A stretch of 64,000 bases of DNA from a virus (taxonomy: Duplodnaviria; Caudoviricetes), in IMG/VR virus record IMGVR_UViG_3300027884_000039, positions 1 through 64,000 of that record; one strand, given 5' to 3'. This document shows, piece by piece, positions 1 through 58,727 of the stretch. Positions within the stretch are counted from its first letter, which is position 1. The number at the start of each line of letters is the position of its first letter. Below the pieces are notes generated by a model that searched no databases, had not been told where the DNA came from, and was given only the letters and a program-made list of their open reading frames with translations. The translations under genes were made by a program, and so were the position numbers.

Positions 1-3000
1 TTCTGTATCAAAGTACTTGCTCATGACCTCCTTTTGTGATGCTTGCTTCTGCGCTTCATCGATTGGATGCGCTTTCGCTTCACCCAGGACAGCTAATGCC
101 TGGTCAGGATCAAGGCCCTTACGTTGCAAGTACAACATAACCTGATCATCTGTACGTCCGGCCATCATTAGCTGGCCCGCTTGCTTGGTTAGCCTAACTG
201 GGTCTGCGGGGCCTCCACTGGCGGATACGGGTTGACCGCTTTGATTTGGTCCTGTAGCTGCTGCCCCTTGCTGAAGTGTGCCAGGGTCTTCCTCAAAACT
301 CGGCCCCTTTGAGTACTGTCGAGGTGTTCCATCATCTTCAGGATCGCGGGCTGCTGCTGTATGTACTGACTGAACCGACTGACCGCGCTCGTTGTCTTCT
401 TCATCGACGAATAATTTTACGGTGTTATGTACTTCTTCGGGCGGAATCGTCCCCCCTTCGATCTTATCCACGGTGGTATTATCGGCCTGCTCCTGGTGCG
501 CAGAAGGAATCATCTGCGCATGCTCAGGTGGGTTGGAACTAGCGAACTCCTTAATAGCGTCTTCATTCCAGCCACCATGCTTCTGGGCGGCATTCCATAT
601 ACTCAAGTTGTTGGTATGATTGACGAGCGCGGTGCCGGATTGATTTTCCGCCATGAGCGCCTTGCGGTCATCAATCGTGCGATTAGCATAGGTTTTCAAT
701 GATTCACCCAACTCCTTGCCCTTGTATTTTTCGATATCACCCTGGTAGACTGTTTCATTTGGGTTTTCGGAGAACCATTTCTGAATCGGCTTGAACTCCT
801 GTTCGTCCATGCCGCTGAAGTCCTTCAAGTCCCAAGAGCGTTGTCCCGGCCTTGTCTCTACCGGCACCTTGCCATCAGCCACGATCTCCGCCGTTTCCTT
901 ACCACGAGGTGAATCTGAACTAACTACGCGGGAGATATCATGTTCACCGTGAACTTGGTCTTTTAACTCATGGGCATCTACGATTCCTTTGTCTGATAGC
1001 CCAACCTGGTTCTGACCCGATACTTTATTTTCCTCATCGTGGATCGTATCGGCATGCGTCAGGTCTATGATGTCGTTGGATTCTTTTTCCCCACCTGCCT
1101 TGGCGCCTTGTTGGGCAGCGTTTTGATCGACTGCCCCTTGGCTTTCATCTCGTCCGCCCATTGCTTGGCTATCGCCGGATGCTGGGCGAACATCATCCGC
1201 TGTTGGCTCTTGCTTTTGAATGGCATCTTGTTTTATTTTAATTTTGTTTTGTGTATCACTATCGCCAATGATCTTAATATTCACTCCCTCCTTGGTGAGC
1301 AGATCGGGATGCTGATCGATCGCTTCTAATAGCTCGTCTCGGTTCGTTTCATTGCCATTGATAAAATAGAGCGGTTCTTTGCCGGACATGATCCTCTGAA
1401 TGCGTTCATCGGATTCCTTCTTTAATTCATCGATATGACCAGTGGCATTGCCGGACTGCTCGATATATTTGTCCATCGTGCGCTGGTTCAATAGTTCATT
1501 CATTACCGCTATTCGCTGTTCCGGCTTGCCATATTTGGGTACTAGCGGTCTTACCGCTGCAACATCATCGATAACGCTATTCACATTATTTGCCTCCTTG
1601 TCATTGTATATTCCGCCCTCATGCATAGAGCTTACTAGCTGTTTTAATTCATCTGCTCGCCCTGGTGTATCTTTCATCTCCATCGCAGATAGTACATTGT
1701 TCGCGATGGTTTGATTGCTGGGTAGTAGCTTATTATCACCATTATCATACTGCCTGCCGAAACTGAACATGGTATTGGTTGCCCGATCCACTTGCCAGTT
1801 ATGCAGTTTATCGACAGCCGCTTTCTGCAAACCCCCTAAGACTGCGCCAGAAATGAAGGTCTTTGCGGCATCCGGGTCCCTGGTCACATAATCCAGGATA
1901 TGCATAGCGGGATTATCGGTAGACTTTTGATTGAAGTCCTGTAAGGCAAAGTGGGTACCGCTGACCAATCCTTCCGCCGCTCCAGCACCGAGCTTCTGCC
2001 AGACATTCCCCATCGGCATCTTGAGTAGCCCCATTTGCAAGGGCGTCATGAGCATATCAGTTGTAAAATTCTTGGCGAGCAATTGATCTGATTTCGACGC
2101 TGCCTGATCAGGATCGAGCCCCTGTTTGATCAAATCATTATAATAAGCGTGTGCCATGAGATAGCTATTGGCTGGACTAACGGCCACACCTCCCAGCATG
2201 CCTTCTGCAAACTTGCCAATAGTGCCCGCTGCGCGGGCACCTGCTAGAGCCTCGTATATCGGCCCACCTACAGCCCCTGAGAGTGCGCCGATCGCCGCCA
2301 TATCCAAGGCCATCGGTACAACCTGTCCCGCGATATAGTTAATTCCTTCGCCTGTCTGCGGGATTACATTGCTGGCCTTCAGGTTATCTGCCGCAGTTTT
2401 CAACTGATAGCCCAGGGCGCTATTCTGCGGCGAACCGCCCAACTCCAGTAATGAACTCACCTGACCGCCGAGATCACCCGCTGCATTGATGGCACCCATG
2501 AGCACCTTATTGGTACCTGTAATCTGATCATGGAATGGCGCATTTTGCGCGAGTGGCTGACGGCCGATGCCGACATTGTTTAATCGATTGGCAATCGCCT
2601 GCGTGCGCTGTGCATCGTATTGATGACCCGCCGCAGTGTACACCTGGTTTACATGGTTCATAACAGCCGGGTCTTTGGCGACTTCGCCCATCCAGGTTTT
2701 CTCATAGTCGTCCGATGTGATCTGTCCACTTTGCAATAGTTGTGTGGCGTGATCTTGTGCGGCCTTCACTTCGGGTATGCCTTGCAACACTGGCTCCGCC
2801 TTCTGATTCACATAGTATTGTCCCTGACGATCCTTGCTATAGTTGAGGATTTGATTGCGGAGCCAATATCGATCTTTCGGCCCCAGACCCTTTGTGTTCA
2901 GATAATCTTCCACCGCCTTGGGATCGGCTTCCTGGAAGGCCTCGGCAGGCATATTGGGGTCAGTCGTTAATGCAGGAACTTTTCCCGTAAAAATTTTGTT

Positions 3001-3450
3001 CTTCCAGCCTGGGCTCTCTACTTCCGAAATGGCCTGGTCTCGCAAGGTCTGGTAATGCTGTCGGCTCGCCACAGCCAGCGGGTCCTGACTCAGGTCAAGG
3101 CCTTCGCGGTGTTGAATCTGTTGAACCGGACTGGTTGGCTGATCCGTGACCGACTGCTGTGGCTGCTGCGCGGACAGAAATTCCTGCGGGGATTGTGCCT
3201 TGATGGGAGCGGTCTTTTGCGCCGGGAAATACGCATTATAAAACTCGTCCTTTGTCTTCGTGAACGATCCATCACTATGCAGACCATTGTATAATTTGTC
3301 GATGGCAGCAGGATTATTATAATCCTTCTTGAACTCATCAAAGGATTTCGTATACGATCCATCACTATGCAGACCGTTATATAGCTTCTGCAAGGGATCG
3401 CCTGGATCAACCTGCGGCGCCTGTTCCGGTATGTCTTGGTCGTCTGCCAT
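1..3450 (-). CDS. Giant virion cargo/ejection protein, 3'-partial (1150 codons visible), with an internal degenerate histidine-phosphatase domain
   Basis: Translated by hand: ATG at 3450 overlaps the upstream stop (TAATG) and the frame stays open to the window edge (MADDQDIPEQAPQVD...). It is missing from the ORF track because it is truncated. Lies downstream of the tail genes. Confidence 0.85.
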   Translation of the reverse strand, partial: MADDQDIPEQAPQVDPGDPLQKLYNGLHSDGSYTKSFDEFKKDYNNPAAIDKLYNGLHSDGSFTKTKDEFYNAYFPAQKTAPIKAQSPQEFLSAQQPQQSVTDQPTSPVQQIQHREGLDLSQDPLAVASRQHYQTLRDQAISEVESPGWKNKIFTGKVPALTTDPNMPAEAFQEADPKAVEDYLNTKGLGPKDRYWLRNQILNYSKDRQGQYYVNQKAEPVLQGIPEVKAAQDHATQLLQSGQITSDDYEKTWMGEVAKDPAVMNHVNQVYTAAGHQYDAQRTQAIANRLNNVGIGRQPLAQNAPFHDQITGTNKVLMGAINAAGDLGGQVSSLLELGGSPQNSALGYQLKTAADNLKASNVIPQTGEGINYIAGQVVPMALDMAAIGALSGAVGGPIYEALAGARAAGTIGKFAEGMLGGVAVSPANSYLMAHAYYNDLIKQGLDPDQAASKSDQLLAKNFTTDMLMTPLQMGLLKMPMGNVWQKLGAGAAEGLVSGTHFALQDFNQKSTDNPAMHILDYVTRDPDAAKTFISGAVLGGLQKAAVDKLHNWQVDRATNTMFSFGRQYDNGDNKLLPSNQTIANNVLSAMEMKDTPGRADELKQLVSSMHEGGIYNDKEANNVNSVIDDVAAVRPLVPKYGKPEQRIAVMNELLNQRTMDKYIEQSGNATGHIDELKKESDERIQRIMSGKEPLYFINGNETNRDELLEAIDQHPDLLTKEGVNIKIIGDSDTQNKIKIKQDAIQKQEPTADDVRPASGDSQAMGGRDESQGAVDQNAAQQGAKAGGEKESNDIIDLTHADTIHDEENKVSGQNQVGLSDKGIVDAHELKDQVHGEHDISRVVSSDSPRGKETAEIVADGKVPVETRPGQRSWDLKDFSGMDEQEFKPIQKWFSENPNETVYQGDIEKYKGKELGESLKTYANRTIDDRKALMAENQSGTALVNHTNNLSIWNAAQKHGGWNEDAIKEFASSNPPEHAQMIPSAHQEQADNTTVDKIEGGTIPPEEVHNTVKLFVDEEDNERGQSVQSVHTAAARDPEDDGTPRQYSKGPSFEEDPGTLQQGAAATGPNQSGQPVSASGGPADPVRLTKQAGQLMMAGRTDDQVMLYLQRKGLDPDQALAVLGEAKAHPIDEAQKQASQKEVMSKYFDTE
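1065..1226 (-). CDS. Putative overprinted 53-aa basic protein (MPFKSKSQQRMMFAQHPAIAKQWADEMK...)
   Basis: Alternative frame inside the giant gene; ATG preceded by A-rich caaaattaaaataaaacaag; resembles the recurrent small phage MPFKSxxQ...HPxIAKxW ORFs (recalled). Confidence 0.55.
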   Translation of the reverse strand: MPFKSKSQQRMMFAQHPAIAKQWADEMKAKGQSIKTLPNKAPRQVGKKNPTTS

Positions 3451-24212: not shown

Positions 24213-24293
24213 ATACGTTTAGTTTATTTACAGCCCCGTTACGAAGACCTCCAAAGGGAAGAGGCGGGGGCTGCTATCATAATTTTCCCGACT

Positions 24294-24686
24294 TTAGACG
24301 GGTAAACGCCGAAGTTGAAAAGACATGTATAGGCATTCACATAATAGAAATACGGCCCAATACGGAGGGGATTCATGAAACACATATTTTCCTATCAGGA
24401 ATAGCGCTACCATAAATCCCAATATCTGTAGCCACATATAAAACTCTCTATATACGCGCTTTCTCTTGGTATCTGTAATCGGTACCTGCGGTTGTTCTTC
24501 CACTGGCTCCCATATAATGAACCGAAAGCCATTGAATGTTCTCTTGGCACCATTGATTAGCACCACTACACATGGATAACCTTCGATGTCCTCATAAATC
24601 TCCGTCACCCCCTCGTGCCCTACTTCAAAATAGTCAATATCGTCGGGGTTTTCATTACTGTTAAAGATTCTAACATTGGTATTCAT
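24294..24686 (-). CDS. Hypothetical membrane protein (2 C-terminal TMs)
   Basis: Hydrophobic C-terminus. Confidence 0.65.
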   Translation of the reverse strand: MNTNVRIFNSNENPDDIDYFEVGHEGVTEIYEDIEGYPCVVVLINGAKRTFNGFRFIIWEPVEEQPQVPITDTKRKRVYREFYMWLQILGFMVALFLIGKYVFHESPPYWAVFLLCECLYMSFQLRRLPV

Positions 24687-48576: not shown

Positions 48577-48823
48577 GGGATTAGTAATGACAAGTATAAC
48601 GGCTATTGTAGGAATCGACCCAGTGACGGGAGATGAAGGCCTTTGGGCTTTTTTAGATGATTTGGGAAAGTGCACGCCGATGGTATGTGCGGATGAAGAG
48701 CGCGTACAAATGATGTTTCATGTGGCTGAACAAATGAGGAAGGCGAGCGGAATCGAATATAAGGTATTACAATTTTCCACGCGTGAGGATATCACAGCAG
48801 CAACTAAAAACAAGTACAGATGA
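48577..48823 (+). CDS. Hypothetical protein
   Basis: ORF from MGLVMTS (DEGL...PMVCAD..R). Confidence 0.65.
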
Positions 48824-49650
48824 GAACACTAGTCATGGGTGATATTCACGGAGCGGCCAAAGCGATTACACAATGCCTAGAAAGGAGTGGCTTCGACCGG
48901 GAGAATGATCGCCTCATCTTCATCGGGGATATGTGCGACGGCTGGCCCTACGTCTATGAAGCTGTGGAAGTGATTTTACAGGTAAAGAATCGGATCGATA
49001 TCCTGGGTAACCACGATGTATGGTTTCGGGATTGGCTCGTCAGCGGTTTCCATGGTGACCCGATTGGCCCCTGGATGCAAGGGGGAAGTGCCACGGCCAG
49101 GTCCTACCTGCGCCAGATCGGGAAGGAAGACATGATTGAAGAGGGATATCATGGCTATCGTACGTCACTTAATCCTGGCGATATACCGGTATCGCATAAG
49201 CAGTTTTTCAATGATATGGTATTATATTATGTAGATGAGCATCACCGGCTCTACGTGCATGGCGGATATACCCGGACTATGTTGATTGAAGATATGAAGC
49301 GGATCAATCCGGTTGAATTGTATTGGAACCGTGAACTATGGAATCAGGCGATGTGTTGTAAGGGAAATGTACGGTTGAAGACCAAGGATAAGTTCAACGA
49401 AATATTCATTGGCCATACGCAAACGACGATCTGGACAACGAAGGAAACCAAGACGCTTAATGGATTCATCTTGCCGGCCGGTGAACCCATCACGAACCCG
49501 ATGTATCATGGTGGCGTATACAACATCGATACTGGCGCTGGCGGCAGGGGTAAGCTCACGATCATGGACGTAGATACCAAGGAGTGTTGGCAGAGCGACC
49601 TGGTGATGGAGCTATATCCCAATGACAAAGGAAGACATGTAAATTATTAA
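48820..49650 (+). CDS. Calcineurin-like metallophosphoesterase (NinI/PPP-like)
   Basis: GDIHG, GDMCDG, GNHD, VHGG, IGHT, IDTG. Confidence 0.95.
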   Translation: MRTLVMGDIHGAAKAITQCLERSGFDRENDRLIFIGDMCDGWPYVYEAVEVILQVKNRIDILGNHDVWFRDWLVSGFHGDPIGPWMQGGSATARSYLRQIGKEDMIEEGYHGYRTSLNPGDIPVSHKQFFNDMVLYYVDEHHRLYVHGGYTRTMLIEDMKRINPVELYWNRELWNQAMCCKGNVRLKTKDKFNEIFIGHTQTTIWTTKETKTLNGFILPAGEPITNPMYHGGVYNIDTGAGGRGKLTIMDVDTKECWQSDLVMELYPNDKGRHVNY

Positions 49651-49660
49651 AAACAATCAT

Positions 49661-49996
49661 ATGGCATTCAAGATCGACAAACATCACCCGCTTCCAGAAG
49701 ATTTCCGCCCATCAAAACCAATGGCGAAATATCCGCTATATAAAATGGTAGATGGAGACTCGTTTTTTGCGCCGGACAAAACAGAACAAAAGTTAAAGTC
49801 ATCTGTTGCGGGAATAAAAAGGCAATGGATCGCTGACGAAATTAAGACCAGGGAGCAAATAGCAGAAGATCGATGGGTTTACCTGGAATGCGTAGAGGAA
49901 TATGAAGGTGAACTGGTTAAAGGTTGCCGCGTTTGGCTAAATCCGCCGACCACTAAAAAAAAAATAAACCAGACGGAAGCGGACCCCGAACCGTAG
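49661..49996 (+). CDS. Hypothetical DNA-binding-like protein (KYPLYKMVDGDSFF)
   Basis: Recurrent phage motif. Confidence 0.65.
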   Translation: MAFKIDKHHPLPEDFRPSKPMAKYPLYKMVDGDSFFAPDKTEQKLKSSVAGIKRQWIADEIKTREQIAEDRWVYLECVEEYEGELVKGCRVWLNPPTTKKKINQTEADPEP

Positions 49997-50045
49997 GCCA
50001 AATGCTAAGGGATCTAAAAGCGCCGCCAGAAAAAAAGGGGAAACA

Positions 50046-50578
50046 ATGAGCGCCGACTACATGAAATTCAAGCAATGGTTCGACCACAAGTTGGAGGTGG
50101 GCGCATATCCTAACCCTGAGATGGCTGAATGGCGAGCGGAGGATTACGCCTATGTAATCAATGTATCTGGCGCCTGGTACGCAGGTGAAGCGCCGATGTA
50201 TCACCAGACCCGCTATTTTTGGTTTCCGATGAGTGAAGGCAAGAAGGACATGGGTATGAATAGTATTTACGGCGCCCTGGTGATCTTATGGGAGGCCGAG
50301 CGTCGTAATGATCGAGTATACTTGCATTGCCATAGTGGGAGTAACCGCAGTTGGACAGTAGCCGCAGCGTATCATTACCTGCGTACCGGCACGCATTGGA
50401 CCGACCGGTTAAGAGCGGGCCACACTTGAATAAACTGCTGGCCAATTGTGATCGGCATTATTTGCCGCATCAATCCGAAATGGAAGCGTGGCTTGCTCAC
50501 TTGCGCAAGGAACTGGAAACTGGTATGACCCCGTCTTTGCTCACGATGAGTAAGATTGAATGCATAAATAATTTTTAA
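50046..50578 (+). pseudogene. Dual-specificity (CX5R) phosphatase split by an apparent 1-nt frameshift near 50395
   Basis: VYLHCHSGSNRS in ORF 50046-50429; a protein-like continuation LDRPVKSGPHLNKLLANC.. lies in the overlapping frame. Confidence 0.7.
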
Positions 50579-51010: not shown

Positions 51011-51362
51011 TTTGCGTATTTCCAAAAACCTTATTATCTTGAACCCACGTTCCAACTCCCCAGGAGTATGTAGTTGGGGGGACTTTTTTTAATTAATGAA
51101 ATCCATTTCGAACAGAAAGCAAGAGTACAGTTACAATCAGCAACCAACAGTTCTTTTTAAGTTTTAGCAAGGACATTTTTTGATTGAGGATGAAGATTGA
51201 CTTTTGGCAGCAGTTTTGAATGAAGAGTAAACTATTAAAAGAGGGGCATTAAGTTCCTACTTGGCAGTAGCCAGGTATAGAAGGTTAGACTTGGTATTTA
51301 ACAGACATTATCGTCCCCTGTTTCTACAGGGGACTCTTTTAACCAAAAAAACTACCCGCTAT

Positions 51363-51878
51363 ATGACCAAAATTAATGGGCATCTTATTCGCGAAGTGCT
51401 CAAAGAAAAAATGTTGGAGTTGACGACCATCAATTCTACTTTTGAAGAAAGCTTATACAAATTTGAAAGTGAAGAAAAGCCATCCCCTGCCGCGTTGATG
51501 GCACGCATCATGGAACTGGAAACTGCGGTTGCCAAATTGCAAACTCTGCAATCGCAATATAACTTAACCGTAATGGTGCAGATTAATGAAGTAGCGATGC
51601 CCCTGGAAGAGGCGATCAAGCTGGTGGGGGGTGCTGGCCGCTCTTCGAAAAGATGGCGCGAAGCCGCCAAAGGAGAAAAGGTTGACCGGTATGAACGTCG
51701 TGCAAATAGGCAGCGAGAGAAAGACAAGGAATATACCGTCCCCACGATCTCAAAAGAAAAGGCGTTGGAATATGCCAAGAAGGCTGAACAATACGCAGGT
51801 AGTCTTCGCAAGGCCATCGCCTTAGGAATTTTAACAGATATTGAATTTGATGATAGTGTGGCGGCGCTCCTGGAGTAA
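51363..51878 (+). CDS. Coiled-coil protein, DIP1984/DUF6847-like
   Basis: ELE..VAKLQ..QSQYN..V....MPLEEAI pattern; start reassigned to ATG 51363 after an A-rich leader. Confidence 0.65.
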   Translation: MTKINGHLIREVLKEKMLELTTINSTFEESLYKFESEEKPSPAALMARIMELETAVAKLQTLQSQYNLTVMVQINEVAMPLEEAIKLVGGAGRSSKRWREAAKGEKVDRYERRANRQREKDKEYTVPTISKEKALEYAKKAEQYAGSLRKAIALGILTDIEFDDSVAALLE

Positions 51879-52080: not shown

Positions 52081-52151
52081 CGCGAGGTCATCTAACGGTA
52101 GGATACCGGGCTCATAACCCGAGAATTCGGGTTCGATTCCCGACTTCGCAA
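52081..52151 (+). tRNA. tRNA-Met (CAT), initiator type
   Basis: C1:A72 mismatch; GGG/CCC in the anticodon stem; CTCATAA loop; TTCGATT T-loop. Confidence 0.9.
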
Positions 52152-52165
52152 CAAAACTATAACCA

Positions 52166-52954
52166 ATGAAATTAAATGTACTCCTTGCGCGAGCCGAACA
52201 TACTGGTGCGCAGTTCAAAATGATGATTCAAACATATGCACATACTTTCACGCATAAACAGGAGATATTCAGGGGCACTAAGAAGACTTATACGAAGGCA
52301 CCGGGTTCGGATGATTTCCCCAACATGAGCGGCAACGAAAAAGTGCAATCGTCGGTCGATGAATATTTGCAATGGTTTGAAGACACAGCCGACGAGTTTA
52401 TTACTCACCGTTTTAACATTGAGGCTACGAATGCCTCCGGGCCAAAAGCTGAGCTTATCGTCGGTGGGCAGAAATTTGGCAGTTATAGCACCTGCGAGCT
52501 AATGCGGCTCAATGATTTTTTAAATAGTCCTGAATTACTGAAGATGTATTCTATCCTGCCTGTGCGTAGTGATACAGAGAACTGGAAGGAGACTACCGAT
52601 CCGGAAGGCATAAAAAAGAAGTTGTGGGAAACCGACATCAAGAAACTACCCCATAACACGACGATTAAAGGTTGGATTATCCTCCCCGATCCGAATGTGG
52701 AGAAACTGAAGGCCGGTAGTCCGTATACACCTATTAAGGAGTCCAGTGATACGAAAGTGTATTTAGGGGAACAGACCATGCAGAAGTTTAGCGGGGAATG
52801 GAGTCATGCTGATCGGGCCAGTCTGCTGCGCAGGCTCACGATGCTAAAAGCGTCCGTGAAGGAAGCGCTAGTCACAGCCAATGAAACGCCAATGGTGGAA
52901 TCGGAATTAACGGCGAAAAAAATATTCGGGTATTTGCATCGTGGAACAATTTGA
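52166..52954 (+). CDS. DUF7873-like coiled-coil protein
   Basis: MKLNVLLA, FRG..KTY, ATNA...AELIVGG, ELMRL, LPVRS..E.W, KFSGEW...R..LL.RL..LK.SVKEAL..AN, IFGYL. Confidence 0.75.
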   Translation: MKLNVLLARAEHTGAQFKMMIQTYAHTFTHKQEIFRGTKKTYTKAPGSDDFPNMSGNEKVQSSVDEYLQWFEDTADEFITHRFNIEATNASGPKAELIVGGQKFGSYSTCELMRLNDFLNSPELLKMYSILPVRSDTENWKETTDPEGIKKKLWETDIKKLPHNTTIKGWIILPDPNVEKLKAGSPYTPIKESSDTKVYLGEQTMQKFSGEWSHADRASLLRRLTMLKASVKEALVTANETPMVESELTAKKIFGYLHRGTI

Positions 52955-53159
52955 CAAAGCCTTAGCTTTAGCCTTAGCTTAACACGATTCTAGTTAAATC
53001 AACTTTAGCTTCGCGTCAAAAGCCTCAGCTTTGTATGTTAGATCGTGGTGTCAAGCTGACCAGAGCGGAAGGGCACAGGTTCGAATCCTGTCTCGGCCTC
53101 CAGATCATTCGATCCGGAGGCCGAGTAGATACAGCGGCTAGATCATTCTGCATTTTAGC
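52951..53159 (+). ncRNA. Structured RNA 2: (C/T)TTAGC-repeat domain plus a YrlA-like circularly permuted tRNA mimic
   Basis: ttgaca/tgtcaa and cacgat/atcgtg stems; T arm ACAGG-TTCGAAT-CCTGT; acceptor CTCGGCCTCC/GGAGGCCGAG closed by a loop; D-like loop AGCGG; GCGGAA/TTCTGC anticodon-stem equivalent. Confidence 0.8.
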
Positions 53160-53161
53160 CT

Positions 53162-53246
53162 CAGTAAGCTTGAAAACATTGCGAACGTCACGCTGACTTG
53201 AAAATCAGCAGCAGACTGAAAATCTGCCCGTGATTTGGGATCACGT
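53162..53246 (+). repeat. Tandem anticodon-stem-loop-like hairpins
   Basis: GCTGA-CTTGAAAA-TCAGC, GCAGA-CTGAAAA-TCTGC, a weaker CTTGAAAA loop at 53169, and CGTGAT-TTGGG-ATCACG. Confidence 0.65.
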
Positions 53247-53250
53247 TTGG

Positions 53251-53281
53251 GGCCAGGCAGGATACGACCTGGCCCTTTTTT
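53251..53281 (+). terminator. Intrinsic terminator
   Basis: ggccagg/cctggcc stem plus T6. Confidence 0.75.
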
Positions 53282-53300
53282 ACGGTTGAAATGCACAATC

Positions 53301-53711
53301 ATGAAAGATAAAATCGACTCACTTAGCAAAATCCAACTGGATATGAAAATTGAAGTAGAACATGAAGAAGGAATTCCAATGGCGCGGCGAAAGGCGCCGA
53401 GTCTCTATGACCAATTATTTCCGGACCTCATTATGTTGACAGACAAGAAGAGTTTATTTTTCAAGACGGAAAAGGCAAAAGAAACCCTTACTCAATTTCG
53501 CTATTGGCTTAAAGCATATGAGCAAACACAAAAGGCATTTAATTATTTCGCACAGGTAGGATTTAGTACCCATGATAGGAAGATCGGTATCCGGATTTGG
53601 TGTTATGCAAAAACGGTGGAACAAAAGAAGCCCCTTAGTACGGCGCAGCAAACGCTTAAAAAACGAGTGAAGAAAAATGCTGCTAAGAAAAAAGCCATAA
53701 AACATGAATGA
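53301..53711 (+). CDS. Hypothetical basic protein
   Basis: Start reassigned to MKDKID. Confidence 0.65.
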   Translation: MKDKIDSLSKIQLDMKIEVEHEEGIPMARRKAPSLYDQLFPDLIMLTDKKSLFFKTEKAKETLTQFRYWLKAYEQTQKAFNYFAQVGFSTHDRKIGIRIWCYAKTVEQKKPLSTAQQTLKKRVKKNAAKKKAIKHE

Positions 53712-53877
53712 TCAAGATATTAAAATATTACGAACAGCAGGTGATGGGCAACTCAAATCCGTAACTATTAAATTGGATAATGGGGATGTGTTGCACTTTA
53801 ACGATCCTTTAACATTAATCATATGGAAGGATATATTAAAGCTTGCTGCGGAAAAGGCAGAGAATATGCTGCGGTAG
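53704..53877 (+). CDS. Hypothetical 57-aa protein whose stop lies inside tRNA-Ile
   Basis: Hand-translated MNDQDIKILRTAGDGQ... Confidence 0.5.
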   Translation: MNDQDIKILRTAGDGQLKSVTIKLDNGDVLHFNDPLTLIIWKDILKLAAEKAENMLR

Positions 53878-54252: not shown

Positions 54253-54343
54253 GCCGAAGTGCCGGAATTGGTAGACGGCATCGATGATATCGATGGAGCT
54301 TATACTAGATTAGCTCGTGGGGGCTCGTATCCTCCCTTCGGCT
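54253..54343 (+). pseudogene. tRNA-Leu-like (class II) element with a collapsed anticodon loop
   Basis: GCCGAAG/CTTCGGC acceptor; GGAATTGGTAGAC D arm; long variable arm; ATCGA-TGATA-TCGAT (5-nt loop); T-loop CTCGTAT. Confidence 0.7.
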
Positions 54344-54347
54344 CAAT

Positions 54348-57293: not shown

Positions 57294-58727
57294 GTGCCAG
57301 CACAGTGCCAAAATCAGTCAAAAACTACCCACATGTATACAGCCAACACGTTGAAAATCAATGATGCCATATCGCCGGACCACCGTCCGTTGATACAGGC
57401 GATCAATCGTAGAAATTTTAAGCCGCTGAAAATCAGAAAGTTCGTATTTTTAGAGAACAAAAATGCCAACGCAGTGCCAAAACGAGAATTCGTTTATTTC
57501 CAGAAGGTTAGGCTCGTCCAGGGCAAACGGATGTACGTAGAATATTACTTCCGCATTCCCCGTGACCTCACCGAAAAGCTTCCCGCCTCCCTCATTAAAA
57601 AGGAGTGGGTAGACGCTACTGGTCGGCTCAATCAATGGGCTCGTTTTCGGGTTTTTGAGAACATCAATAAGATCAAGGACCCCGACTATCCCCAGGTGCT
57701 CCTCCAGGGAGTCAAGGATGCCCTGAGCAATCGTGAACAACCCTTGGACCCCTTCCAGGAATTAATCAGGGAATATAACCGTATCAAGGTAGAAGAACAA
57801 GCTGTCCAACAAGCCCAGGTCCAGATTGTCACGGTGGCGAGTGCCATGGAAAAATTCCTGAAGAATTATCCCAAGGGTACCGATACCTGGAAAAGTCATT
57901 GCGTAACCAAGAGTATTTTGATCGAAGGCTTGCAGGACCGGTTCGACGGCTCTATTGCCTCCCTGACAACTACAGACCTACGGGAGATGCTGAACCTCAT
58001 GTACGAAGCCAAGGAATGGACGAAAAGTACCTTTAATGATAAGGTTGGCAAACTCAAAACCTTCTTTGAATTTTGCAAAGAGACCGGCATCTTGCCGGTT
58101 AATACTGCCGAACTGCTGAAGAAAAAACCCAAGGTTGGCAAGAGTCGCCACATGTATTACGACAAGGAGATGGGGGAGAAAGTAGTAACCCTGCTGTTAA
58201 AACACCCGTCGGCCTTCGGCAAGCAAACTCACGAGTTCTGCCAGGTCATTTATTATACCTGTACGCGGCCTGACAAGGAAACCCGAGCGCTACGGTGTAA
58301 GGATATCCTATGGGATCGTCATCAGATATATATTCCGGCTGACCGGGCCAAGGGAGGCGCAGCCGGGTATATCGATATGGTGCCAGAACTGGAGACTATG
58401 CTACGTGCAATGAAGATCGACACGATGCCGGGGGAATGGTTTCTATTTGGCTCGGAAGGCAAGCCGGGTCCGGTCTGCCACCGGGAATCATATCTCAGCG
58501 AATTTTTCCGCAAAGAAATCCGGGAACCGAACGGCATTTCGGAGGAGTACACCCTTTATGGATGGAAACATACCCGGATCACCCACCTCTTCCAGGATGG
58601 GGCCAGCATCCAGGAAATTATGCACCAATGCAGGCATACCACCCCCAGCGAAACGGAGAAATATTTATATAAAGACTTGGGCCTCAAGCCGCGCGTGGAT
58701 ACCAATAAAAAAACTAGGGAATTTTAA
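57294..58727 (+). CDS. int: Tyrosine recombinase/integrase (start uncertain)
   Basis: Catalytic R (TCTRP..ET..L), K (AKG), HxR (WKHTR), H (CRHT), Y (TEKYL). Confidence 0.93.
   Translation: MPAQCQNQSKTTHMYTANTLKINDAISPDHRPLIQAINRRNFKPLKIRKFVFLENKNANAVPKREFVYFQKVRLVQGKRMYVEYYFRIPRDLTEKLPASLIKKEWVDATGRLNQWARFRVFENINKIKDPDYPQVLLQGVKDALSNREQPLDPFQELIREYNRIKVEEQAVQQAQVQIVTVASAMEKFLKNYPKGTDTWKSHCVTKSILIEGLQDRFDGSIASLTTTDLREMLNLMYEAKEWTKSTFNDKVGKLKTFFEFCKETGILPVNTAELLKKKPKVGKSRHMYYDKEMGEKVVTLLLKHPSAFGKQTHEFCQVIYYTCTRPDKETRALRCKDILWDRHQIYIPADRAKGGAAGYIDMVPELETMLRAMKIDTMPGEWFLFGSEGKPGPVCHRESYLSEFFRKEIREPNGISEEYTLYGWKHTRITHLFQDGASIQEIMHQCRHTTPSETEKYLYKDLGLKPRVDTNKKTREF

What the first reader, a model, noticed from the sequence alone, without database searches (positions are those of the whole stretch)
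53055..53159. Circularly permuted tRNA mimic (T arm, closed acceptor stem, D arm) of YrlA type with an embedded CCA
The order is GCGGAA (anticodon 3' strand), GGGC (variable), ACAGG-TTCGAAT-CCTGT, CTCGGCC-T-CCA, loop, GGA-GGCCGAG, TA, D arm with AGCGG, A, TTCTGC. tRNA geometry is kept but opened at the anticodon, as in YrlA. Cutting the loop would give a two-piece tRNA with G1-C72, G2-C71, C3-G70, U73 and CCA, which matches tRNA-Cys acceptor determinants but has no anticodon.
Basis: partly seen in the sequence, partly recalled or inferred. Interest (0 to 1): 0.85.

Follow-up and report, generated by a model that had tools for sequence, protein, structure and literature searches.

The report
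Phage tRNA-mimic RNA beside DUF7873
The flagged stretch is a real, conserved RNA shaped like a transfer RNA turned inside out with no anticodon loop; it belongs to a widespread RNA family that I found neither in Rfam nor in the papers searched, and it travels with one protein gene of unknown function (DUF7873) rather than with Ro60, the partner of the only known RNAs of this shape.

Summary
Window 53066-53150 (+) reads, in this order, anticodon-stem 3' strand, variable region, T arm, 7-bp acceptor 3' strand, UCCA, capping hairpin, acceptor 5' strand, U8-A9, D arm, anticodon-stem 5' strand.

It is the core of a roughly 330-nt non-coding RNA (about 52955-53281). This RNA starts right after a DUF7873 gene, inside the tRNA gene cluster of a 79-kb phage.

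The same RNA follows DUF7873 in 40 of the 50 loci I examined: phages, Cytophagales and Aquimarina genomes, and two distant relatives. All four tRNA helices show compensatory changes. After computational un-permuting, ARAGORN of 24 distinct copies a tRNA.

It is not a YrlA family member:
- Rfam scores it 19 bits against a cut-off of 69.
- The GNCGAA Ro-binding motif is absent.
- No TROVE/Ro60 gene is present in 6 phage records.

The "embedded CCA" is not conserved. Only G1, C72, U73 and C74 are invariant, and TCCA occurs in 4 of 25 copies. The genuine tRNA genes of these loci also carry C74 (105 of 108), and the acceptor-capping linker varies from 15 to 130 nt. RNase P and 3'-end processing into a two-piece RNA is therefore plausible but unproven.

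Partner and function are inferred, not shown. This scan has reported the same DUF7873-RNA pairing before on other DNA, in at least 92 genomes.

The parts
52166..52954 (+). DUF7873 (PF25283) gene, 262 aa; the conserved upstream neighbour of the RNA
   Evidence: Pfam E 8e-29. 94 close homologues. 1775 clusters at 50% identity in the large library. AF2 model pLDDT 87 with no clear known fold.
52955..53042 (+). Leader of the RNA. It holds period-6 AGC-N3 repeats (52958-52981 and again 53005-53035) and a small hairpin GATT-CTAGTTA-AATC (52986-53000). The true 5' end is not known.
   Evidence: Sequence. Lag-6 autocorrelation is 0.42, against 0.27 in a coding control, over 22 loci.
53043..53060 (+). 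5' strand of the long closing stem P1
   Evidence: Pairs with 53164-53184. Helices 1-3 are 82-88% paired with changes on both sides.
53066..53070 (+). Anticodon-stem equivalent, 3'-side strand (tRNA positions 39-43), CGGAA
   Evidence: Pairs with 53146-53150. 99.2% paired, and 5 of 5 pairs have changes on both sides.
53071..53074 (+). Variable region GGGC
   Evidence: Sequence.
53075..53091 (+). T arm ACAGG-TTCGAAT-CCTGT with a canonical T loop
   Evidence: 99.2% paired. G53-C61 and the TTCRA loop are invariant.
53092..53098 (+). Acceptor stem 3' strand CTCGGCC (positions 66-72)
   Evidence: 7 of 7 pairs with 53119-53125. All 7 pairs are kept in 24 of 25 distinct copies, with covariation.
53099..53102 (+). 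U73-C74-C75-A76 equivalent. U73 and C74 are invariant in the subfamily; C75 and A76 are not.
   Evidence: T 25/25 at position 73 and C 25/25 at position 74. Position 75 is T13/C8/A4. TCCA occurs in 4 of 25 copies.
53103..53118 (+). Linker that caps the acceptor stem. Here it is a hairpin GATC-ATTC-GATC plus C and GGA, with GGA pairing to UCC. In the family it is hypervariable, 15-130 nt.
   Evidence: In the GC-rich clade the extension helix is kept by compensatory changes.
53119..53125 (+). Acceptor stem 5' strand GGCCGAG. G53119 is G1, the site where RNase P would be predicted to cut on its 5' side.
   Evidence: G1 is invariant, 25/25. Cleavage itself was not tested.
53126..53144 (+). U8-A9 and D arm GATACAGCGGCTAGATC, with G18-G19 in the loop
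   Evidence: The three outer D-stem pairs are always paired and two of them covary. The fourth pair (13:22) is usually unpaired (15 of 24).
53145..53150 (+). A26 and anticodon-stem equivalent, 5'-side strand TTCTG
   Evidence: helix 4.
53151..53163 (+). Internal loop carrying another copy of the TTAGCC repeat
   Evidence: Alignments.
53164..53184 (+). 3' strand of P1, with a conserved 3-nt AAA bulge (53173-53175; motif TGAAAAC)
53192..53244 (+). Three small hairpins. The second has a 5-bp stem and a 7-nt C-U-NNN-A-A loop like an anticodon arm; the first has the same stem and an 8-nt C-U-...-A-A loop. They are found only in the GC-rich clade.
   Evidence: Sequence. Comparison with L001-L003 and L035.
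53249..53281 (+). Terminal hairpin whose loop carries the family-wide AGGAU motif, followed by a T6 run. It is the probable intrinsic terminator and 3' end.
   Evidence: Sequence. An AGGAU(A/U) loop is seen in every homologue inspected.

Best explanation
SHOWN. The flagged stretch is the tRNA-shaped head of a roughly 330-nt structured non-coding RNA (about 52955-53281, + strand). It is encoded directly after a DUF7873 gene, inside the tRNA gene cluster of a 79-kb phage whose relatives point to Bacteroidota hosts. The head is a circularly permuted tRNA body. The anticodon stem opens into a long closing stem instead of an anticodon loop. The acceptor stem is capped by a linker. The D/T elbow is canonical. 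The RNA belongs to a large family linked to DUF7873. That family has the topology of the YrlA tRNA-like domain but none of the features that tie YrlA to Ro60.

INFERRED.
(a) The RNA most likely works together with the DUF7873 protein as a Ro60-independent RNA-protein unit. It uses the tRNA elbow and acceptor end to engage tRNA-recognising machinery. About 45%.
(b) In this subfamily the head is probably treated as a pre-tRNA. RNase P would cut 5' of G53119, and the tRNA 3'-end pathway would trim after U53099/C53100 and complete CCA. The result would be a two-piece RNA held together by the acceptor stem and by P1, as reported for M. smegmatis YrlA. About 45%.
(c) The biological role is most likely in tRNA/RNA damage or quality control during phage-host conflict. 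About 35%; this is the weakest step.
For: Structure and family:
- Covariation in all four tRNA helices.
- ARAGORN accepts 24 of 24 un-permuted copies.
- RNAalifold agrees on an unfitted alignment.

Linkage to DUF7873:
- The RNA lies 83-390 nt downstream of DUF7873, on the same strand, in 40 of the 50 loci examined. The breakdown is window + L001-L003 4/4, IMG/VR loci 28/35, Cytophagales/Aquimarina genomes 6/9, and distant 244-aa relatives 2/2.

Not a Ro system:
- TROVE is absent from 6 phage records.
- TROVE is present in only 2 of 5 host-type MAGs, and there it was found on other contig numbers, not in the loci beside DUF7873.

Processing:
- The acceptor stem is strictly 7 bp. G1, C72, U73 and C74 are invariant while the linker is 15-130 nt and unalignable.
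- 105 of 108 distinct genuine tRNA genes in the same loci carry C74, and only 7 carry C75. The mimic therefore has the same trailer signature as real pre-tRNAs here.
- Precedent: M. smegmatis YrlA, the YrlA with a 7-bp stem, is cut by RNase P and receives CCA in vivo (PMC4201824; bioRxiv 10.1101/312249).

Context:
- The cassette sits among tRNA genes: 200 ARAGORN calls in 39 loci.
- End-healing-type enzymes lie nearby in some loci. These are Metallophos and DSPc in the window and in close relatives (Metallophos in L001-L003, DSPc in L001 and L003), Metallophos in one distant locus, and an AAA_33 kinase overlapping the DUF7873 start in another.
Against: - There is no transcript, end-mapping, binding or cleavage datum for any member.
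- DUF7873 has a near-neutral pI (median 6.2) and no recognisable RNA-binding fold, so physical binding rests on gene-RNA adjacency alone.
- Six Lak-like megaphage loci have DUF7873 without the RNA next to it.
- In the window's GC-rich clade the linker is a helix maintained by compensatory changes. That argues the closed, uncut form is selected, at least transiently.
- One distant relative (L052) has a 6-bp acceptor stem closed by a 7-nt loop, as in the uncut classical YrlA. Processing therefore cannot be a family-wide rule.
- The healing-enzyme neighbours are not found within 2.5 kb in most loci.
Confidence: 0.72

Rival explanations
1. It is a genuine, merely divergent Y RNA (YrlA). The phage RNA would dock the host's Ro60/Rsr through its closing stem and redirect or block the Rsr-PNPase RNA-decay machine. 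DUF7873 would be only a syntenic neighbour.
For: - The tRNA-like domain has the same topology, and YrlA is the only Rfam family that aligns over it.
- Some Bacteroidota do encode TROVE proteins: the B. thetaiotaomicron control and 2 of 5 Cytophagales MAGs.
- In some members the terminal hairpin loop reads G(U/C)CGAAGG (L007, L039, L040). This loosely resembles the GNCGAA / GGUCCGAAGG Ro-binding motif (PMC4201824).
Against: - The score is 19 bits against a cut-off of 69, and only the tRNA-like part aligns.
- None of 20 homologous loci reaches the cut-off.
- The 5' GNCGAAN0-1G motif is missing in 21 of 22 copies.
- No rsr gene lies within 4 kb, nor anywhere in 6 phage records.
- 3 of 5 carrier MAGs show no TROVE gene, although the MAGs are incomplete.
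- T and D stems covary freely here, whereas their sequences are conserved in YrlA (bioRxiv 10.1101/312249).
Confidence: 0.1
2. It is a working split tRNA-like adaptor. After the linker is removed, the CCA end would be charged (U73 suggests CysRS or GlyRS). The aminoacyl-RNA would then be used on the ribosome in a tmRNA-like way, or as an amino-acid donor in a non-ribosomal transfer reaction.
For: - U73, G1-C72 and a 7-bp acceptor stem are invariant.
- The trailer signature matches that of real tRNA genes.
- The window copy has the G1-C72, G2-C71, C3-G70, U73 set of E. coli tRNA-Cys, and other copies have the Gly-like GCGGGGG stem.
- From my own recollection, unchecked here, acceptor minihelices can be charged by CysRS in a U73-dependent way.
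Against: - There is no anticodon loop, which is a major determinant for both CysRS and GlyRS.
- There is no G3-U70, no tag reading frame and no ARAGORN tmRNA call.
- Acceptor positions 2-7 are not conserved.
- No aminoacyl-transferase-type gene was seen beside the cassette in the 10 neighbouring proteins scanned.
- The GC-rich clade keeps the linker as a helix.
Confidence: 0.07
3. It is a free-standing decoy or sponge. The tRNA-shaped head, and in this clade the anticodon-arm-like hairpins downstream, would soak up host tRNA-targeting nucleases or tRNA-binding defence proteins and so protect the phage's own tRNAs. No dedicated protein partner would be involved.
For: - The cassette is embedded in phage tRNA clusters.
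- The elbow and acceptor end are canonical.
- Downstream hairpins have 5-bp stems and C-U-NNN-A-A loops with varying 'anticodons' in the window, L001-L003 and L035.
Against: - The same cassette occurs in cellular Cytophagales/Aquimarina genomes, and, according to earlier scan notes, in many bacterial phyla. A phage counter-defence decoy does not explain that.
- The anticodon-arm-like hairpins are confined to one clade.
- Tight linkage to DUF7873 would go unexplained.
Confidence: 0.1
4. It is not a functional RNA. It would be the tail of one decayed tRNA gene next to the head of another (the 'dimeric tRNA' false positive known for YrlA searches), an attP-type tRNA fragment for the integrase at 57294-58727, or a chance match.
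For: - Adjacent tRNA pairs do give YrlA-like hits; one such false hit appears on the minus strand of L052.
- An integrase lies 4 kb downstream.
Against: - The acceptor 3' strand pairs with the downstream 5' strand, and the two covary over 25 distinct copies.
- No full tRNA is called on either side of the element.
- The anticodon-stem halves pair across the whole element, and P1 closes it.
- The element keeps its position after DUF7873 in phages of 40-550 kb and in bacterial genomes.
Confidence: 0.01

Closest known systems
YrlA (Y RNA-like A; Rfam RF02553), the Ro60/Rsr-bound Y RNA of bacteria and mycobacteriophages (Chen et al. 2014, PMC4201824; Wang et al. 2018, bioRxiv 10.1101/312249)
   Same: - The element order is the same: closing stem, V region, T arm, loop-capped acceptor stem, D arm.
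- The D/T elbow is canonical.
- It is sometimes encoded next to tRNA genes.
- The M. smegmatis member, with a 7-bp stem, is cut by RNase P and gets CCA. That is the processing proposed here.
   Different: - There is no Ro60/TROVE neighbour and no GNCGAAN0-1G motif, and the score is far below the Rfam cut-off.
- The partner gene is DUF7873.
- The acceptor stem is strictly 7 bp with invariant G1, C72, U73 and C74. In YrlA the stem is of variable length and usually shorter.
- T and D stems covary rather than being conserved in sequence.
- The RNA is about 330 nt, with a period-6 repeat leader and a terminal AGGAU hairpin.
Two-piece (circularly permuted) tmRNA of alpha-proteobacteria, some cyanobacteria and others
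   Same: The gene order is T arm, acceptor 3' strand, intervening segment, acceptor 5' strand. The intervening segment is excised to give a two-piece tRNA-like molecule, and there is no anticodon loop.
   Different: - Here there is a full D arm with G18-G19.
- There is no G3-U70 alanine identity, no tag reading frame and no pseudoknots.
- ARAGORN and Rfam tmRNA models do not match it.
Permuted tRNA genes of the red alga Cyanidioschyzon merolae and other algae
   Same: The 3' half of the tRNA is encoded upstream of the 5' half, joined by a linker that RNase P and tRNase Z remove.
   Different: Those genes yield a complete tRNA with an anticodon loop, through a circular intermediate made by the splicing endonuclease and ligase. 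Here the anticodon stem opens into a conserved long stem, with no loop, no bulge-helix-bulge motif and no U33 context.

Membership tests
YrlA / bacterial Y RNA (RF02553) | Scores at or above the Rfam gathering threshold (69 bits) | tested here: not met
   The score is 19.0 bits, E 0.19, over model positions 23-86 only. There is no YrlA hit at gathering score in the window or in 20 homologous loci.
YrlA / bacterial Y RNA (RF02553) | Encoded within about 4 kb of, and on the same strand as, a Ro60/Rsr (TROVE) gene | tested here: not met
   PF05731 is absent from the whole 79-kb phage record (completeness 100%) and from 5 related phage records. It is present in 2 of 5 carrier MAGs, but there it was found on other contig numbers, not in the loci beside DUF7873.
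YrlA / bacterial Y RNA (RF02553) | GNCGAAN0-1G motif near the 5' end (proposed Rsr contact) | tested here: not met
   A regex over the 5' region of 22 copies finds it in 1 of 22, and not in the window.
YrlA / bacterial Y RNA (RF02553) | tRNA-like domain with T arm, loop-capped acceptor stem, D arm and V region in permuted order | tested here: met
YrlA / bacterial Y RNA (RF02553) | Bound by Rsr in vivo | not testable with these tools
   This needs immunoprecipitation.
DUF7873-linked tRNA-mimic RNA (unpublished; noted earlier by this scan) | Lies directly downstream of, and on the same strand as, a DUF7873 (PF25283) gene | tested here: met
   The gene ends at 52954 and the RNA model starts at 53039. 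The same arrangement holds in 40 of 50 loci.
DUF7873-linked tRNA-mimic RNA (unpublished; noted earlier by this scan) | At least one permuted, anticodon-less tRNA-like head closed by a long stem | tested here: met
   There is one head in this subfamily. Two heads are seen in the distant locus L053.
tmRNA (two-piece, permuted) | G3-U70 alanine identity, a tag reading frame and pseudoknots | tested here: not met
   Position 3-70 is C-G in the window and a Watson-Crick pair elsewhere. ARAGORN finds no tmRNA and Rfam gives no tmRNA hit.
Canonical tRNA gene | Contiguous cloverleaf with an anticodon loop | tested here: not met
   ARAGORN and Rfam call no tRNA at 53055-53159. Only the computationally un-permuted form, with an added loop, is called.

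The most novel reading that the evidence does not exclude
A Ro60-independent ribonucleoprotein built as follows. DUF7873 would load onto the period-6 AGC-repeat leader and closing stem. RNase P and the host CCA pathway would open the tRNA-shaped head into a two-piece, CCA-ended, U73-identity molecule. That molecule would be charged, or otherwise handled as a tRNA, and would act in phage-host conflict over tRNA integrity. This would be a new class of processed tRNA-like adaptor shared by phages and many bacteria.
Probability: 0.12. Interest if true: 0.9.

Novelty: new variant of a known kind. Interest (0 to 1): 0.66.

Why it matters
YrlA-type tRNA mimics are known only as partners of Ro60, and even for them the factor that reads the tRNA-like head is unknown. 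Here the same architecture recurs in a large family: DUF7873 alone has 1775 clusters at 50% identity. The family has no Ro60, sits inside phage tRNA clusters and in bacterial genomes, and its acceptor end is conserved like that of a real pre-tRNA.

If the RNA and DUF7873 work together, that would define a second, widespread class of tRNA-mimic ribonucleoprotein. It would also assign a first function to a Pfam domain of unknown function. The processing prediction (cuts at G53119 and after U53099/C53100, then CCA addition) can be tested directly with one Northern/RACE experiment and one RNase P assay.

Tried and rejected
- Close DNA relatives: blastn of 52900-53320 against GenBank phages found no match. 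An exact 25-mer of the T arm plus acceptor end had no match in IMG/VR. A single-protein locus search in IMG/VR found none. Relatives were reached only through a DUF7873 alignment.
- RNA expression: no RNA holder was listed for 52900-53300.
- DUF7873 fold:
  - Foldseek against PDB gave nothing at E <= 1e-3. The weak list was rich in Cas7-family chains, which prompted a Cas7-like, 6-nt-register idea.
  - The exhaustive VIA-align search did not list Cas7 and gave only helical-bundle matches at Z <= 6.
  - The Atlas structure neighbours were only other DUF7873 clusters.
  - I therefore dropped the Cas7 idea as unsupported. The 'atlas' fold library was not available.
- A PDB sequence search with the DUF7873 profile gave only chance-level hits.
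- The 205-aa protein at 51261-51878, which another first-reader note called a paralogue, shows no relation to DUF7873 (hhalign probability 0.3%).
- A kissing interaction between the terminal AGGAU loop and the upstream ATCCTAG hairpin was considered and rejected. The 5' motif is absent from several members that keep AGGAU.
- A sigma-70 promoter at the conserved TTGAC next to the DUF7873 stop codon was not supported by the consensus scan or by spacing in the relatives.
- RtcB and the CCA-adding enzyme were not found in 5 phage records.
- Complex prediction (DUF7873 homodimer) could not be reached in four tries. There is no result.
- Burroughs and Aravind 2016 and the 2020 Ro60 review could not be read, as neither is held.

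Full report
**1. What is in the sequence**

The elements, in order, are:
- GCGGAA (53065-70)
- GGGC
- ACAGG-TTCGAAT-CCTGT (53075-91)
- CTCGGCC (53092-98)
- T-CC-A (53099-102)
- GATC-ATTC-GATC-C-GGA (53103-18)
- GGCCGAG (53119-25)
- TA
- D arm GATACAGCGGCTAGATC (53128-44)
- A
- TTCTGC (53146-51)

This is a tRNA body read from position 39 round to position 31. The acceptor stem is closed by a hairpin, and there is no anticodon loop. UCC pairs with GGA, so the acceptor helix runs on for 10 bp plus 4 more. The 'CCA' is part of that helix. ARAGORN and Rfam call no tRNA or tmRNA here. The best Rfam alignments are a partial tRNA hit (19.8 bits) and YrlA positions 23-86 (19.0 bits against a gathering score of 69). 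The region folds 5.2 sd better than shuffles.

**2. The element is the core of a longer RNA next to DUF7873**

The gene ending at 52954 is a DUF7873 protein (PF25283, E 8e-29). Its homologues sit on many phage contigs of 75-80 kb.

In three syntenic contigs fetched through those homologues (L001-L003) the gap after the gene holds the same permuted tRNA-like element. All four stems are changed in a compensatory way.

The conserved unit runs from the stop codon to a hairpin plus T-run. In the window that is about 52955-53281. It comprises:
- a leader with AGC-N3 hexamer repeats;
- a long closing stem P1 (53043-60 with 53164-84, conserved AAA bulge);
- the tRNA-like head;
- small hairpins;
- a terminal hairpin whose loop carries AGGAU in every member I inspected.

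**3. How far the family reaches**

I built a covariance model from 4 seeds and then from 11 sequences (R1 and R2).
- R2 finds the RNA on the + strand, 83-390 nt after DUF7873, in 32 of the 39 sources searched, which are the window, L001-L003 and the 35 IMG/VR loci.
- The exceptions are L005, which has an internal deletion between two AAGCAT repeats, and six Lak-like megaphage loci.
- DUF7873 is also found in the Prevotella Lak megaphages and in Cytophagales and Aquimarina genomes. There, 6 of 9 loci carry the RNA; in one of the three without a hit the contig ends about 100 nt after the gene, and in another about 440 nt after it.
- Two distant 244-aa relatives also have permuted tRNA-like modules after the gene. 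One (L053) has two heads. The other (L052) has a 6-bp acceptor stem closed by a 7-nt loop.
- The protein family is large: 1775 clusters at 50% identity with E <= 1e-3.

**4. Is the structure real?**

- On 24 distinct sequences, 89.3% of cells are paired, against 64.3% in shuffles (0 of 500 as high) and 35-40% when partners are slid.
- 39 of 46 pairs have changes on both sides.
- The anticodon-like stem and the T stem are each 99.2% paired, and the 7 acceptor pairs are kept throughout.
- That alignment was fitted to the model, so I also ran MAFFT + RNAalifold on 13 sequences. This recovered the T and acceptor stems with covariation.
- Re-joining the halves in tRNA order with a filler loop makes ARAGORN call a tRNA in 24 of 24 cases. 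The 'Cys' label in that output comes from my filler.
- The 'dimeric tRNA' artefact known for YrlA searches is excluded. The two acceptor strands of the element pair with each other and covary, and no full tRNA flanks it. A true example of that artefact appeared on the minus strand of L052.

**5. Not a YrlA family member**

The defining features from Chen et al. 2014 (PMC4201824) are a neighbouring Ro60/Rsr gene, a GNCGAAN0-1G motif near the 5' end, and the tRNA-like domain. Only the third is met.
- TROVE is absent from this complete phage record and from five related ones.
- TROVE is present in 2 of 5 carrier MAGs, on other contig numbers rather than in the loci beside DUF7873.
- The motif is absent from the 5' region in 21 of 22 copies.
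- No homologous locus reaches the Rfam cut-off.
- In YrlA the T and D stem sequences are conserved and the acceptor stem varies in length (bioRxiv 10.1101/312249). Here the stems covary and the acceptor stem is always 7 bp.

**6. The acceptor end**

Across 25 distinct copies:
- G1, C72, U73 and C74 are invariant.
- Position 75 is T (13), C (8) or A (4).
- TCCA occurs 4 times.
- The linker after U73 is 15-130 nt and cannot be aligned.

In 108 distinct genuine tRNA genes from the same loci, position 74 is C in 105 and position 75 is C in only 7. The mimic therefore keeps the same trailer signature as real pre-tRNAs of these phages.

Three points count against it. In the window's GC-rich clade (window, L001-L003, L035) the linker is a helix kept by compensatory changes. 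L052 has a short closed stem. No RNA data could be obtained. I put processing at about 45%.

**7. The protein partner**

The AF2 model is confident (pLDDT 87) but has no clear structural relative. The PDB sequence search is empty. The pI is near neutral. Binding is inferred from adjacency only.

The leader has a strong period-6 signal: lag-6 autocorrelation is 0.42 against 0.27 in coding DNA. That would suit a protein binding in a 6-nt register. A weak Cas7-rich Foldseek list was not confirmed by the exhaustive search, so I do not claim it.

**8. Context**

The cassette sits in tRNA clusters. In the window, tRNA-Met lies at 52081 and tRNA-Ile at 53868. Across the 39 loci there are 200 ARAGORN calls, and in L038 a tmRNA lies just upstream of the gene.

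Metallophos and DSPc phosphatases lie 1.7-3.3 kb upstream in the window and in close relatives (Metallophos in L001-L003, DSPc in L001 and L003). A Metallophos gene and an AAA_33 kinase lie beside two distant members. This is a weak hint of RNA end-healing, and it is not seen within 2.5 kb of most loci. RtcB and the CCA-adding enzyme are not phage-encoded.

**9. Prior knowledge**

I found no paper naming DUF7873. I found none describing a Ro-independent permuted tRNA mimic in phages.

This scan has itself reported the same gene-RNA pair on other DNA: 143 notes in at least 92 genomes. Those notes are leads, not evidence. I reached the pairing independently before reading them.

**10. Verdict**

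The element is a real tRNA mimic with YrlA topology. It belongs to a distinct family linked to DUF7873, whose function and partner are still inferred.

Noticed in passing
window 24215-24309 (-): A type-P3 twister ribozyme scores above the Rfam gathering threshold (53.2 bits against 39.9).
   Followed up: no
window 52958-53035 and 53155-53160; 22 homologous loci: The RNA leader, and the internal loop after the head, carry AGC-N3 hexamer repeats (TTAGCC/TTAGCT). Over 22 loci the lag-6 autocorrelation is 0.42 and lag-12 is 0.37, against about 0.27 in coding DNA.
   Followed up: partly
window 53249-53281; all homologues inspected: The terminator-like hairpin has a conserved loop motif AGGAU(A/U) (CAGGATACGA here, GAAGGATATTGAA in another clade). 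Terminator loops are not normally conserved, so this is probably a functional site.
   Followed up: partly
window 53192-53227; L001-L003, L035: Downstream hairpins have 5-bp stems and 7-nt loops of the pattern C-U-NNN-A-A, like anticodon arms. The 'anticodons' differ between phages (GAA, UAU, UGA, GUU, CAU, UGU). They occur only in the GC-rich clade.
   Followed up: partly
tRNA genes of window and L001-L038: Of 108 distinct tRNA genes, 105 encode C at position 74 but only 7 encode C at position 75. These phages therefore encode N73-C74 and then avoid CCA, which is an unusual and consistent trailer signature.
   Followed up: partly
window 54253-54344 (+): ARAGORN calls a 92-nt 'tRNA-Ile(GAT)' whose 5' half (GCCGAAGTGCCGGAATTGGTAGACGGC) looks like a long-arm, Leu-type tRNA. 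Rfam's tRNA model does not call it at gathering score. Similar genes follow the RNA directly in L003 and L035.
   Followed up: no
L038 2042-2442: A phage-encoded tmRNA (54.8 bits) lies immediately upstream of the DUF7873 gene (2501-3280).
   Followed up: no
L010 324-421, L015 368-472, L020 278-379: RAGATH-34 RNAs score above the Rfam threshold about 2 kb upstream of DUF7873 in one phage clade.
   Followed up: no
L005 3350-3480: A natural deletion between two AAGCAT repeats removes the T arm and the acceptor 3' strand of the mimic, leaving the 5' half. This is a decayed copy.
   Followed up: partly
L026-L030, L032; GenBank MK250015-MK250029: Lak megaphages of Prevotella, and Lak-like contigs, carry DUF7873 (about 37% identity) but have no tRNA-mimic RNA directly after it. 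A plain terminator and a reverse-strand gene follow instead.
   Followed up: partly
L053 105-602; ENA contig of P0181; window 48820-50429: End-healing-type enzymes lie beside DUF7873 in several unrelated loci: an AAA_33 kinase overlapping the DUF7873 start, Metallophos, and a DSPc-like phosphatase.
   Followed up: partly
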